From a virus: 64,000 nt of DNA. Positions within the stretch are counted from its first letter, which is position 1. Each line of letters starts with the position of its first letter. The position numbers were made by a program, and so were the translations under genes. Below, piece by piece: positions 14,026 to 17,689 of the stretch. The notes beneath the pieces were generated by a model. It did not search any database, was not told the DNA's origin, and worked only from the letters and a program-made list of their open reading frames with translations. The stretch is taken from IMG/VR virus record IMGVR_UViG_3300028029_000178, positions 412 to 64,411 of that record, one strand, 5' to 3'.

Positions 14026-14412
14026 ATGGGATTAGATTATAGCCATACCTGCCCTGAGATAGATAAAGAGATAGAAAATTTTAAAGACTCTATAGACAGT
14101 GTTTTATCTAATATGTTAGATGAGACTAACCCTTTACTAGAGGGCAAACAAAAGCAAGATATTATTGATAATTACGTAGAAGATTTGTACAATAGTATAG
14201 ATGACCCCTTTGAATCTGTAAGAAGATGTAATGAAGATATGCGAACTGAAGCAGACGATCAAATTGAAACTTTAGAGGAAAGAGTAGATGAACTATCCTC
14301 TGAATTAGATGATAGAGTAGATGAGATAGAAGATTTAACAAATAATCTAGGTGTCTCTGAAGAGAGAGTAAGAGAACTAGAGGCAGAAAATTTAGAATTG
14401 TCAAATGAGTAA
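14026..14412 (+). CDS. Acidic coiled-coil hypothetical protein
   Basis: Track ORF 14011..14412; the ATG at 14026 (MGLDYSHTCP) is preferred because it follows the upstream stop. Confidence 0.65.
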   Translation: MGLDYSHTCPEIDKEIENFKDSIDSVLSNMLDETNPLLEGKQKQDIIDNYVEDLYNSIDDPFESVRRCNEDMRTEADDQIETLEERVDELSSELDDRVDEIEDLTNNLGVSEERVRELEAENLELSNE

Positions 14413-14650
14413 TTTTAAAGAGGGAGAAAAAATAGTATGCATTCGTCCAGGAGAAGCTAGTTTAGGTTTAGAGAAGGATAAGTTGTATACTTGTCTTGCC
14501 TCATTCAATAGTAATATGGAAGAGAGTGTAGTAGAGGTTTTGGAAGCAATGCCTCCTGAACCTTACCATGGCTATCAAGCAAGCAGATTTAGGAAAGCTA
14601 TTCCTAAAGATATGAAAAAATTAGAAGAGACAGAAGCACTTACAATATGA
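14405..14650 (+). CDS. Hypothetical protein (SH3/KOW-like small domain)
   Basis: FKEGEKIVCI...GLEKDKLYT pattern; overlaps both neighbours. Confidence 0.6.
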   Translation: MSNFKEGEKIVCIRPGEASLGLEKDKLYTCLASFNSNMEESVVEVLEAMPPEPYHGYQASRFRKAIPKDMKKLEETEALTI

Positions 14651-15570
14651 AAAAAGAACCAAGAATTTTAGTCAATAAAATTATCACGCCAGATGGCACA
14701 GAATTAATATCTCACCATAGGCATGATTATAGAAGTTATGTAGATGAAAGTAGACTGTCTTTTTCTGTGGATGGTGGAAGTTCTTATTTAAGAAGAAGTG
14801 TTGGTTTTGATCCAATTTTTTCTCTATTTACAGACAAAGAAGAAAGACTAATAAAGGAAAAAGAAATTACTTATAATCCCATGTCAGGAAGATTCACAGA
14901 TGCAAAAAGTAATTATAGAGACACTACAATAGGCGCAGATGGTTACAGAACTATTAGTATTGGTGGAAAAACATACAAAGCTCATAGATTAATTTTTTTA
15001 TTGTCAGGGCAGAATATAAGTGAAAAAGAAGTAGACCACATAGACAATATAAGAAGTAATAATACATGGATAAATTTAAGAATTGTATCTAAAAAACAGA
15101 GTCAAGCTAATGCTCTTTTAAGAACTGATAGTTCAACAAAAATAAAAGGGCTTACATTTCATAAGAGTAAAAAACTGTGGGTTGGTAGAGTTCAACATAA
15201 TAAAAAAAGATATGAGGTATCTAGTAAAACTAAAGAGATAGCAATTGAAAAACTTGAAAAATTAAGAATTAGAGTACATGGAATATATGCAAATAGTGGG
15301 CACTCTTCTGTAACTTTTACTGATTTTTACACAGAGGCCTCTTTATATAGTACTTCCCCTTTTGAAGAGATAAGAAAAGGATTACACAGAGGAGACAGAG
15401 GTATTGATGGAACTGAATCTCTATCATATGTATTATTGAAAGATATGTCAAACGAGTGGTTAAAAAATGTAATAATATATGAAAAAGATTTTAGACCAAA
15501 TAATATATATATGGAATACTATTTAAAAGAGATAGAATACAGAATAAAAAATAACATTTATATTAAGTAA
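14647..15570 (+). CDS. Small phage protein (TPDG..SxHRHDY..VDGG..YLRR type) with an in-frame HNH-AP2 insertion
   Basis: aa 1-51 and aa ~224-307 look like two halves of one small protein; aa ~55-218 between them are an HNH and AP2-like segment. Confidence 0.7.
   Translation: MKKEPRILVNKIITPDGTELISHHRHDYRSYVDESRLSFSVDGGSSYLRRSVGFDPIFSLFTDKEERLIKEKEITYNPMSGRFTDAKSNYRDTTIGADGYRTISIGGKTYKAHRLIFLLSGQNISEKEVDHIDNIRSNNTWINLRIVSKKQSQANALLRTDSSTKIKGLTFHKSKKLWVGRVQHNKKRYEVSSKTKEIAIEKLEKLRIRVHGIYANSGHSSVTFTDFYTEASLYSTSPFEEIRKGLHRGDRGIDGTESLSYVLLKDMSNEWLKNVIIYEKDFRPNNIYMEYYLKEIEYRIKNNIYIK
14809..15300 (+). mobile_element. In-frame HNH/AP2 homing endonuclease domain (boundaries approximate)
   Basis: GYRTISIGGKTYKAHRLIF, VDHIDNIRSNNTWINLR, AP2-like SSTKIKGLTFHKSKKLWVGRV, and HG.YAN ending. 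Confidence 0.8.
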
Positions 15571-15573
15571 ATT

Positions 15574-16092
15574 ATGAATAAAACAACAATTGAAAATTAC
15601 CAAGAGAGAGCTTTAAGAACTATGGTTTCATTAGGAAGTAAAGCAATAGACGGAGCTCATATGGCTCTAGGGCTTACAACTGAGTATATAGAGTTAGAAG
15701 ATGGTATAAATAAAGATGACCTACCTAATATAAGAGAGGAACATGGAGATATCCTTTGGTATGTAGCCAATGAGTGCACTATCTATAAATTAAGTTTTAA
15801 AAGTATTTGTAAAAAAGCTATTAATTCAGGTGGAGTGTTTAAACTTGGAGATATAGTAGACTTACACAAAAGAGAACTTGCCTATGGAAAAGAGATAGAT
15901 GCAAATGTATTAGAAGAACTTATAATAGAGGCAGTAGCTTGGTTAATATTTGTTGCAGAGTCCTATAACTTTACATTTGAAAGCAGCTTAGAAAGAAACA
16001 TAGACAAATTAATTCAAAGATTCCCAGATAAATTTACTCAAGAGGCAGCTTTGACTAGGGACTTAGATAAAGAAAGAAAAATACTAGAATAG
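15574..16092 (+). CDS. MazG-like nucleotide pyrophosphohydrolase
   Basis: LGLTTEYIEL...EEHGDILWYVA (ExxE...ExxD) and NIDKLIQRFP. Confidence 0.8.
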   Translation: MNKTTIENYQERALRTMVSLGSKAIDGAHMALGLTTEYIELEDGINKDDLPNIREEHGDILWYVANECTIYKLSFKSICKKAINSGGVFKLGDIVDLHKRELAYGKEIDANVLEELIIEAVAWLIFVAESYNFTFESSLERNIDKLIQRFPDKFTQEAALTRDLDKERKILE

Positions 16093-16678: not shown

Positions 16679-17689
16679 ATGGAATTTAAAGCATATCATA
16701 AAATAAGACAGTTTAAAGATATCGTAAGAGATATCCAACTCAATGCTAATTTTAAAGGTATGGGTGACGATGGAGAACCTATATACCAAGATTCTAGGAA
16801 ACCTATTTTAATGTTCTCAGGGACTGTGAAGTTACACGGAACTAATGCAGGTGTATGTTATACTTTAGCAAAAGGGGTAGTAGCTCAAAAAAGAAGCTCA
16901 TTAATACCTGCTGACCAACTACAAGCTCATTTCAGTTTTAATCAGTTTGTCCAGGTAGAGAAAAAAGATTTCTTTGAAACCCTAATGGCAAAACTATGGG
17001 CAGAAAATTGTAGGGATAATCAGCAAATAACAATTCATGGAGAATGGGCAGGTTTAGGAATACAAAAATCTGTAGGGATATCTGAACTACCTAAGAATTT
17101 TTATATTTTTGGAGTTGAGATGTATGACCCTGAGACAGACACTAAGATTTGGCTAGACCTTCCAAATCTAGAATCAGATGATAAAGTACATTTAATAACT
17201 GATTTTAAAACTTGGAGACTAGAAATAGATTTTAATTCTCCAGCTTTATCTCAAGATATTTTAGTAGAGATAACTGAATCGGTTGAGCAAAAATGCCCTG
17301 TGGCAAATAGACGAGGAATCGAAGGAATCGGAGAGGGTGTTGTATGGACTTGTTTTTGGAAAGGAGTTAAGTATATCTTTAAAGTAAAAGGTGAAAAACA
17401 TTCTGTATCTAAAGTTAAAAAATCAGCATCAGTAGATCCAGAGATAATTAAATCTATTTATGAATTTGTAGATTATGCTTGTACTCCTAATAGAATAGAG
17501 CAAGGAATTCAAGAGGTACAAGCTACAGAGAAGAGACACACCCCAGACTTACTTAGATGGGTAGCGAATGACATTATAACAGAAGAAACAGATACTTTAG
17601 TAGCTAATAACTTAGAATGGAAACAAGTTGCTAGAGAGGTATCTAATAGGATTAGACAATACTTTTTTACAAAAATAGATAAATTATGA
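16679..17689 (+). CDS. RNA ligase, Rnl2-like
   Basis: Nucleotidyltransferase motifs I KLHGTNA, III IHGEWAG, IIIa FYIFGV, IV EGVVW, V FKVK. Confidence 0.82.
   Translation: MEFKAYHKIRQFKDIVRDIQLNANFKGMGDDGEPIYQDSRKPILMFSGTVKLHGTNAGVCYTLAKGVVAQKRSSLIPADQLQAHFSFNQFVQVEKKDFFETLMAKLWAENCRDNQQITIHGEWAGLGIQKSVGISELPKNFYIFGVEMYDPETDTKIWLDLPNLESDDKVHLITDFKTWRLEIDFNSPALSQDILVEITESVEQKCPVANRRGIEGIGEGVVWTCFWKGVKYIFKVKGEKHSVSKVKKSASVDPEIIKSIYEFVDYACTPNRIEQGIQEVQATEKRHTPDLLRWVANDIITEETDTLVANNLEWKQVAREVSNRIRQYFFTKIDKL

What the first reader, a model, noticed from the sequence alone, without database searches (positions are those of the whole stretch)
14647..15570. HNH-AP2 endonuclease fused in frame inside a small phage gene with no intein or intron signals
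Seen: host-like N-part (TPDGTELISHHRHDY...VDGGSSYLRRS) and C-part (YTEASLYSTSPFEEIRKGLHRG...YVLLKDMS) flank ~165 aa of HNH plus AP2. The junctions have no Cys/Ser1...His-Asn intein termini, the frame is unbroken, and no non-coding space exists for a group I/II core. From memory, the two flanks are contiguous in other phages. Inference: a homing element tolerated as a permanent domain insertion, or removed by an unknown route; possibly a mobile-element lifestyle distinct from inteins, introns and free-standing genes.
Basis: partly seen in the sequence, partly recalled or inferred. Interest (0 to 1): 0.75.

Follow-up and report, generated by a model that had tools for sequence, protein, structure and literature searches.

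The report
Unspliced homing endonuclease inside phage gene
A selfish DNA-cutting gene (an HNH homing endonuclease) sits in frame in a surface loop of a small, widespread phage protein with nothing to splice it out, and comparison with relatives shows it has both persisted there for a long time and moved between versions of the gene; this way of life is known in outline but hardly described for phages.

Summary
Window 14647-15570 (+) is one 307-aa ORF. Residues 1-57 and 228-307 together match one contiguous ~130-aa phage protein family (DUF7695; hhalign E 8e-31, with a single gap). Residues 58-227 are a complete I-HmuI-type HNH endonuclease with an AP2-like tail, equal in extent to a free-standing 174-aa phage HNH gene.

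There is no intein (no Hint blocks or junction residues), no intron (no Rfam hit, no non-coding space) and no conserved internal start.

Five more fused alleles exist in metagenomes, all at the same site and all in frame. The insert is under purifying selection (dN/dS about 0.25). About 82 of 88 aligned family members lack it.

The AF2 model keeps the host fold intact around the insert (TM 0.91 to an insertion-free homologue). The insertion point is a coil.

A mosaic in P0002 versus its insertion-free sister P0029 shows that about 26 upstream codons travel with the insert, which is a homing or co-conversion footprint.

The window's own copy has Ser where the metal-binding Asn of the HNH motif should be, so it may be inactive.

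Closest precedents are fungal mitochondrial rps3-LAGLIDADG fusions and the actinophage ShiLan element, whose HNH is out of frame. This scan has already found similar in-frame modules in phage ThyA and methylase genes on other DNA.

Verdict: a real feature, a new variant of a known kind, of moderate interest.

The parts
14647..15570 (+). Whole fused ORF, 307 aa (P0001). Its ATG overlaps the TGA of the upstream 81-aa gene (ATGA).
14647..14817 (+). Host N-part, residues 1-57: beta-rich DUF7695 domain.
   Evidence: tblastn hits to 128-141-aa phage proteins. Pfam DUF7695 on those homologues. phmmer found 468 family representatives. hhalign.
14737..14817 (+). Residues 31-57: the stretch of host sequence that shares ancestry with the insert in fused alleles. 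Read as a co-conversion tract, and possibly as the nuclease-resistant version of the target.
   Evidence: Segment identities. Maximum chi-square mosaic tests.
14818..15327 (+). Insert, residues 58-227: a complete HNH plus AP2-like homing-endonuclease module with no start or stop codon of its own.
   Evidence: Residues 65-218 align with residues 4-163 of the free-standing 174-aa HNH gp42 of Pseudomonas phage PS-1. PHROG_99. Shape matches to free-standing HNH clusters over residues 58-230. I-HmuI 1u3e.
14974..15102 (+). HNH_3 catalytic motif, residues 110-152 (D130, H131, N139, N143).
15100..15102 (+). Codon AGT = Ser152, at the position aligned with Asn96 of I-HmuI. The other five fused alleles, PS-1 gp42 and I-HmuI all have Asn here.
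15127..15300 (+). AP2-like DNA-binding module, residues 161-218 (three strands plus a helix).
   Evidence: Pfam AP2 below threshold. Fold matches 3igm and 7et4 at prob 0.6-0.66. Secondary structure.
15289..15318 (+). Low-confidence flexible linker, residues 215-224, leading back into the host protein.
15328..15570 (+). Host C-part, residues 228-307 plus the stop codon: the helical half of the DUF7695-family protein.
   Evidence: Alignment A2. hhalign. Shape match spanning residues 3-303.
14405..14650 (+). Upstream 81-aa gene, conserved next to the fused gene in two related phages.

Best explanation
A formerly free-standing I-HmuI-type HNH homing-endonuclease gene, with an AP2-like DNA-binding tail, has lost its own start and stop codons. 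It now lives as an in-frame insertion in an exposed coil of a small, very widespread phage protein of unknown function (DUF7695 family).

It is translated from the host gene's start codon as one 307-aa polypeptide. The two halves of the host protein still fold together around the insert, so the insertion is tolerated without RNA or protein splicing.

The element spreads, or spread, by ordinary intron-less homing. The nuclease cuts or nicks insertion-free alleles, probably within the roughly 26 codons upstream of the insertion point. Repair then copies the insert together with that upstream stretch.

Shown here:
- the architecture;
- that the flanks are contiguous elsewhere;
- absence of intein and intron features;
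- conservation of the open frame and purifying selection;
- a preserved host fold in the model;
- recombination mosaics.

Inferred:
- translation as a single protein;
- nuclease activity while embedded;
- where the target lies;
- that the window's own copy (Ser at the metal-binding Asn position) is weakened or dead.
For: The flanks form one protein elsewhere: hhalign E 8.3e-31 with a single gap, and alignment A2.

The insert equals a whole free-standing HEG, with HNH_3 above the Pfam cut-off and I-HmuI as the best solved match.

Six fused alleles come from separate samples, all at the same site and all in frame.
- Three of them lie in syntenic phages whose neighbouring genes are just as diverged, at 47-63 % identity.
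- dN/dS is about 0.25 in the insert and 0.08-0.46 in the C-part.

There is no conserved internal start or SD at either junction. There is no Rfam intron, no Hint or intein family in Pfam, and no flanking DNA repeats.

Structure:
- The AF2 model has pLDDT 90.2 and pTM 0.76.
- An insertion-free 130-aa family representative superposes on residues 3-303 with rmsd 1.5 and TM 0.91.
- The insertion point is a coil in the insertion-free model.
- The length of that loop varies across the family.

Mobility:
- Fused alleles are not one clade on the host-part tree. P0002 is sister to insertion-free P0029 with SH-aLRT 99.
- In P0002, residues 31-56 match the other fused alleles (0 of 11 informative sites like P0029), while elsewhere 46 of 52 are like P0029; 0 of 300 permutations reach this.
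- P0003 shows a similar pattern.
Against: - There is no RNA or protein evidence that the product stays unspliced.
- The host-part tree is a quick tree on 141 columns with mostly weak support.
- The mosaic triplets were chosen after seeing the data, and only the P0002/P0029 case is strong.
- The AF2 alignment contains insertion-free homologues, so a preserved host fold is partly expected.
- dS is near saturation, so dN/dS is rough.
- The window copy has Ser152 at the metal-ligand position, and P0002 has lost the AP2-like module. The element is therefore decaying in some lineages and may no longer be mobile in this phage.
- The ends of an extended I-HmuI-like nuclease must meet at one host loop, which could hinder DNA binding.
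Confidence: 0.72

Rival explanations
1. Domesticated domain. The HNH plus AP2-like module has been co-opted as a working part of the DUF7695 protein, for example as a DNA-binding or nicking function for the phage, and is no longer a selfish element.
For: Purifying selection on the insert is as strong as on the host N-part. It has persisted over the long term in three syntenic phages. The catalytic motif is kept in five of six alleles.
Against: Only 6 of 88 aligned members carry it, and none of the cultured-phage homologues do. The mosaic and non-monophyly point to transfer between alleles. Decay is seen in P0002 (AP2-like part deleted) and in the window copy (Ser152).
Confidence: 0.12
2. Stranded passenger. 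The nuclease is dead in this phage and the insert persists only because the loop tolerates it and precise in-frame deletion is rare. There is no present mobility and no function.
For: Ser152 replaces the Asn aligned with the I-HmuI metal ligand, in the window copy only. The insert's GC content matches its surroundings. The insertion loop varies in length and is permissive.
Against: The 170 insert codons (residues 58-227) stay open in a ~30 % GC genome, and dN/dS is about 0.25 against its nearest relatives, which argues for recent constraint. A single Asn-to-Ser change may lower activity rather than abolish it.
Confidence: 0.12
3. The insert is removed after all, by an undescribed RNA or protein splicing or processing route, or bypassed during translation.
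For: Nothing positive. It simply cannot be excluded without experiments. A flexible linker (residues 215-224) could be a protease site.
Against: No Hint blocks, no Cys/Ser/Thr...His-Asn junction residues, and the junction residues are not conserved among the six alleles. No intron model hit. Selection on the amino-acid sequence runs through both junctions. There is no stop codon or take-off/landing pair that would suggest a translational hop.
Confidence: 0.04

Closest known systems
LAGLIDADG homing-endonuclease genes fused in frame inside the fungal mitochondrial rps3 gene (Ophiostoma; Sethuraman et al. 2009, Mol Biol Evol 26:2299, as cited in PMC5626475)
   Same: A homing-endonuclease ORF inserted in frame within a protein-coding gene, with no intron or intein of its own, expressed from the host gene's signals.
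   Different: A different nuclease family (LAGLIDADG versus HNH) and an organellar rather than phage setting. The rps3 cases are described, from my memory of that paper, as involving duplication of displaced host sequence. No duplication was detectable here at the DNA level.
ShiLan domain of actinobacteriophage DNA methylases (PMC9957025, PMC11855218)
   Same: A phage gene carrying a non-splicing insertion that stays open in the host frame, is predicted to loop out of the host fold, has a patchy distribution, and moves between diverged alleles by recombination. An HNH endonuclease is involved.
   Different: In ShiLan the HNH is encoded out of frame, with its own GTG start and TAA stop, and the in-frame read-through peptide is not a nuclease. 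Here the HNH is in the host frame and can only be made as an internal domain of the host protein.
Free-standing HNH homing endonucleases of phages (I-HmuI type, PDB 1U3E; PS-1 gp42; T4 MobE)
   Same: The same nuclease family and size: HNH_3 motif, AP2-like or other DNA-binding tail, and homing with co-conversion of flanking markers.
   Different: Those have their own start and stop codons and sit between genes or in introns. When they land inside genes they split them into two polypeptides (Aeh1 nrdA, T4 gene 39/60, phage 25 gene 43; PMC2988022). Here the gene is not split.
Inteins with endonuclease domains
   Same: An in-frame selfish insertion in a conserved gene, translated with the host protein.
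   Different: There is no Hint splicing domain, no junction nucleophiles and no terminal His-Asn, and the insert is fully accounted for by the nuclease.

Membership tests
HNH_3 / I-HmuI-type HNH homing endonuclease | Sequence match to the HNH_3 beta-beta-alpha-metal motif above the curated threshold | tested here: met
   Pfam HNH_3 scores 36 bits against a cut-off of 24.8, over residues 110-152. PHROG_99 gives E 6.5e-39.
HNH_3 / I-HmuI-type HNH homing endonuclease | Complete catalytic set (Asp-His pair, structural Asn, metal-binding Asn) | tested here: inconclusive
   D130, H131, N139 and N143 are present. Ser152 aligns with Asn96 of I-HmuI, while the other five fused alleles have Asn there. 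The ligand role of Asn96 is taken from my memory of Shen et al. 2004.
HNH_3 / I-HmuI-type HNH homing endonuclease | Fold similar to I-HmuI | tested here: met
   Foldseek best hit 1u3e_M, E 1.9e-4, prob 1.00. Free-standing HNH clusters give TM 0.63-0.65 over residues 58-230.
HNH_3 / I-HmuI-type HNH homing endonuclease | Site-specific cleavage of the empty allele and gene conversion | not testable with these tools
   Only an indirect footprint is available: the mosaic with about 26 co-transferred upstream codons.
AP2 DNA-binding domain (PF00847) | Match above the Pfam gathering score | tested here: inconclusive
   14.1 bits against 33.3 (E 0.061) for residues 158-222. The free-standing relative PS-1 gp42 scores 21.2 bits. 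AP2 structures 3igm and 7et4 appear at prob 0.6-0.66.
Intein | Hint splicing blocks, a Cys/Ser/Thr at the first residue and at +1, and a terminal His-Asn | tested here: not met
   No Hint or intein family in Pfam. The junction residues are hydrophobic/aromatic and are not conserved among the six alleles. The nuclease module accounts for nearly the whole insert (residues 65-218 of 58-227), leaving only short tails at each end.
Group I / group II intron | Structured ribozyme core and non-coding space, with no need for frame continuity into the 3' exon | tested here: not met
   No Rfam intron hit even at E 10. The frame is continuous in six diverged alleles, with dN/dS about 0.25 across the insert.
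Free-standing homing endonuclease gene | Own start codon, ribosome-binding site and stop codon | tested here: not met
   No conserved ATG/GTG/TTG with an SD near the 5' junction and no stop at the 3' junction in any allele.
ShiLan-type hidden HNH insertion | HNH encoded in a frame other than the host's | tested here: not met
   The HNH_3 match is in the host frame. The ShiLan description is in PMC11855218.
DUF7695-family phage protein (host gene) | N-terminal DUF7695 domain plus the family's helical C-terminal half, collinear | tested here: met
   hhalign prob 99.85 %, E 8.3e-31. Pfam DUF7695 is found on homologues. The shape match gives TM 0.91 to a 130-aa cluster representative.

The most novel reading that the evidence does not exclude
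Phage homing endonucleases have a third, splicing-free way of occupying coding sequence. They are translated as an internal domain of the host protein, parked in a permissive loop, while remaining active enough to home with a short co-conversion tract. If so, many 'odd domain insertions' in phage proteins would be live selfish elements, and such a nuclease would work while tethered at both ends.
Probability: 0.45. Interest if true: 0.7.

Novelty: new variant of a known kind. Interest (0 to 1): 0.55.

Why it matters
The textbook view (for example PMC3943268) is that homing endonucleases need an intron or intein to live inside conserved coding sequence, and otherwise sit between genes or split them.

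Here a complete HNH nuclease is embedded in frame in a phage protein. Comparative evidence shows it has been kept under selection through deep divergence and has moved between alleles.

Together with the fungal rps3 cases, the out-of-frame ShiLan element, and the ThyA and methylase cases this scan met on other DNA, it suggests that tolerated insertion is a recurrent niche for selfish nucleases.

It also gives a compact test system: a 130-aa host protein, six natural filled alleles, a natural truncated allele (P0002), a natural active-site variant (the window copy), and a close empty allele (P0029). With these one could ask whether a nuclease tethered at both ends can still home, and how loops become permissive.

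Tried and rejected
1. **Word-index searches for empty alleles.** Searching with the C-part and with the N-part found nothing. The exhaustive phmmer search was needed.
2. **Close relatives in viral contigs.** The search for related loci found no close relative.
3. **Pairwise BLAST of the C-part against cultured-phage homologues.** This was only marginal (E 0.026). Profile and closer metagenomic alleles settled the question.
4. **Remnant hypothesis.** Seven family members carry an extra stretch of about 22 aa at the same loop, and I suspected they were deletion scars of the endonuclease. An HMM of the insert's N-terminus scored them no better than shuffled versions, so I rejected this for lack of support.
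5. **Junction duplication.** By eye, a few host residues seemed to be repeated on both sides of the insert. No DNA direct repeat at the junctions was found, and the apparent N-side copy is better explained as the nuclease's own N-terminal helix, which aligns with PS-1 gp42. This is left unresolved and is not claimed.
6. **Apparent extension of HNH hits into the N-part.** tblastn alignments starting at residues 5-15 are not real. PS-1 gp42 starts at its own ATG and aligns only from residue 65.
7. **Host protein function.** No solved fold matches the insertion-free model (Foldseek best E 0.5; best VIA Z 4.3).
8. **Synteny with GD virus 1 neighbours.** Not supported by BLAST.
9. **Compositional anomaly of the insert.** None was seen.

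Full report
**What is there**

Window 14647-15570 (+) is a single ORF of 307 codons with no internal stop. Its ATG overlaps the TGA of the upstream 81-aa gene. The record is a 64.7-kb IMG/VR phage contig, estimated 45 % complete, with about 30 % GC. Pfam places HNH_3 at residues 110-152 (36 bits, cut-off 24.8). PHROG_99 'HNH endonuclease' covers residues 74-220 (E 6.5e-39). The flanks alone hit no HNH family.

**Are the flanks one protein elsewhere?** Yes.

- The N-part finds 128-141-aa hypothetical proteins in cultured phages (Paraglaciecola GD virus 1 gp189, Limnohabitans DC31, Alishewanella Slickus01 and others). These carry Pfam DUF7695 at their N-terminus.
- An exhaustive phmmer search with residues 1-75 found 468 cluster representatives, most of them 125-145 aa long.
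- A profile of 82 insertion-free members aligns to the window protein at prob 99.85 %, E 8.3e-31. There are 133 aligned columns spanning residues 1-306, with one gap from about residue 56 to 226.
- MAFFT places the insert at residues 58-227. The breakpoints are therefore good to about two residues: window 14818-15327.
- In 88 aligned members, the loop between the two conserved arginines that bracket the site is 18-27 aa in 75 proteins, 39-45 aa in 7, and 145-193 aa in the 6 fused ones. The HNH is therefore not ancestral to the family.

**What is the insert?**

- Residues 65-218 align with residues 4-163 of the free-standing 174-aa HNH endonuclease gp42 of Pseudomonas phage PS-1 (34 % identity, E 2e-19). 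The insert is therefore a whole endonuclease gene minus its start and stop codons.
- The only solved relative by sequence, and the best by fold, is I-HmuI (1U3E).
- The C-terminal third (three strands and a helix) is AP2-like but below Pfam's threshold.
- In the I-HmuI alignment, D130/H131 match D74/H75, and N139 and N143 match the structural asparagines. Ser152 (AGT, 15100-15102) sits where I-HmuI has Asn96. All five other fused alleles and PS-1 gp42 have Asn there.
- From memory of Shen et al. 2004, Asn96 is a metal ligand. The window's copy may therefore be weakened or dead.

**Splicing elements**

- No Hint or intein family was found.
- The junction residues are not nucleophiles and are not conserved among alleles.
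- There is no Rfam intron hit even at E 10, and no non-coding space.
- There are no DNA direct repeats at the junctions.
- Promoter- and terminator-like sites do not exceed chance.
- There is no conserved in-frame start with an SD near either junction. Neither the nuclease nor the host C-part has an evident independent route to translation.

**Relatives with the same architecture**

Five further fused alleles exist in metagenome assemblies from different samples:

- P0152 (306 aa)
- P0153 (360 aa)
- P0003 (309 aa)
- P0004 (318 aa)
- P0002 (250 aa; the AP2-like part is deleted and the motif Asp is changed to Glu)

All have the insert at the same site and in frame.

Identity between alleles is 55-78 % in the N-part, 38-62 % in the insert and 31-54 % in the C-part. 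The insert is thus as old as the divergence of these genes. Nei-Gojobori estimates give dN/dS of about 0.25 for the insert and 0.08-0.46 for the C-part. dS is near saturation, so these values are rough.

The window, L010 (P0153) and L011/L012 (P0152) are syntenic. The upstream 81-aa gene (47-62 % identity) and the downstream 193-aa gene (57-63 %) are conserved to the same degree as the fused gene. That indicates vertical persistence of the fused state. L007, L008 and L009 share no neighbours with the window.

**Tolerance**

- AF2 with an 88-row alignment gives pLDDT 90.2 and pTM 0.76, with only residues 215-224 below 50.
- In the ESM-atlas shape search, a 130-aa DUF7695 cluster representative (1077 members, 99 % viral) superposes on 129 residues spread over model residues 3-303, with rmsd 1.5 and TM 0.91 by the smaller protein. 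Free-standing HNH clusters superpose on residues 58-230.
- In the model of insertion-free P0029 (pLDDT 96.7), the insertion point lies in a coil at residues 48-55.

The caveat is that the alignment contains insertion-free homologues, so this shows compatibility rather than proof.

**Mobility**

On a quick tree of host parts, the fused alleles are clustered but are not one clade. P0002 is sister to insertion-free P0029 (SH-aLRT 99), and P0003 groups with P0140.

Segment identities show why:

| Segment | P0002 vs P0029 | P0002 vs P0153 |
|---|---|---|
| Residues 1-31 | 86 % | 62 % |
| Residues 32-57 | 44 % | 85 % |
| C-part | 69-81 % | about 30 % |

A maximum chi-square scan puts the foreign segment at residues 31-56. 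There, 0 of 11 informative sites resemble P0029, against 46 of 52 outside the segment. None of 300 permutations reaches this, and the nucleotide level agrees. P0003 shows the same pattern against P0020, P0140 and P0144 (0-3 of 500 permutations).

The insert plus about 26 upstream codons therefore has a different history from the rest of the gene. This is what homing with a one-sided co-conversion tract produces. That stretch includes the family's most conserved motif, which makes it a plausible target. All six fused alleles share a distinct version of it, which could be the resistant form; that last point is inference.

**Comparison with what is known**

- Phage HEGs are described as free-standing, intron-borne or intein-borne. 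When they land in genes, they split them into separate polypeptides (PMC2988022). Self-splicing hosts are thought to be what lets them invade conserved coding sequence (PMC3943268).
- In-frame LAGLIDADG-rps3 fusions are known in fungal mitochondria (Sethuraman et al. 2009, as cited in PMC5626475).
- The actinophage ShiLan element is a non-splicing, homing insertion in a methylase, but its HNH is out of frame with its own start and stop (PMC9957025, PMC11855218).
- My text searches found no published phage case with the nuclease in the host frame, and nothing on DUF7695.
- Earlier notes of this scan report comparable in-frame modules in phage ThyA and C5-methylase genes on other DNA. These notes gave me the ShiLan references, but I did not re-test them.

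**Verdict**

This is a real feature. I rate it a new variant of a known kind, of moderate interest. The window's own copy may be an inactive representative.

Noticed in passing
proteins P0019, P0075, P0078, P0119, P0138, P0144, P0147 (relatives, not in the window): Seven insertion-free family members carry an extra stretch of about 22 aa, rich in Leu/Ile/Lys, at exactly the loop where the endonuclease sits. It is not significantly similar to the endonuclease and its origin is unknown. It shows the loop is a permissive, recurrently modified site.
   Followed up: yes
window 15574-16092: A MazG-like pyrophosphohydrolase gene lies between the fused gene and the conserved 193-aa gene. In the related contig L011 the 193-aa gene follows directly, and in L010 a different 143-aa gene (cREC_REC hit) occupies the slot. 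The position just downstream of the endonuclease-bearing gene is therefore variable.
   Followed up: partly
L008:1456-2208 (P0002): This fused allele has lost the whole AP2-like module by an in-frame deletion and has Glu instead of the motif Asp. It looks like a decaying copy of the element next to a very similar empty allele (P0029, L013:4001-4393).
   Followed up: partly
proteins P0016, P0050, P0140, P0035 (relatives): The DUF7695 N-domain or the whole small protein also occurs fused to unrelated C-terminal modules. By eye these are a hexapeptide-repeat acyltransferase-like part in P0016 and a metallophosphoesterase-like part in P0050. I did not check these with profile searches.
   Followed up: no
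proteins P0011 (726 aa) and P0025 (606 aa): Long proteins match residues ~16-48 of the N-part six to eight times each, so the DUF7695 core may be built from a short repeat that also forms long arrays.
   Followed up: no
window 16679-17689: An RNA ligase gene (Pfam RNA_ligase) lies three genes downstream. In Paraglaciecola GD virus 1 the DUF7695 gene also lies two genes upstream of an RNA ligase, though the genes in between are not detectably similar.
   Followed up: partly
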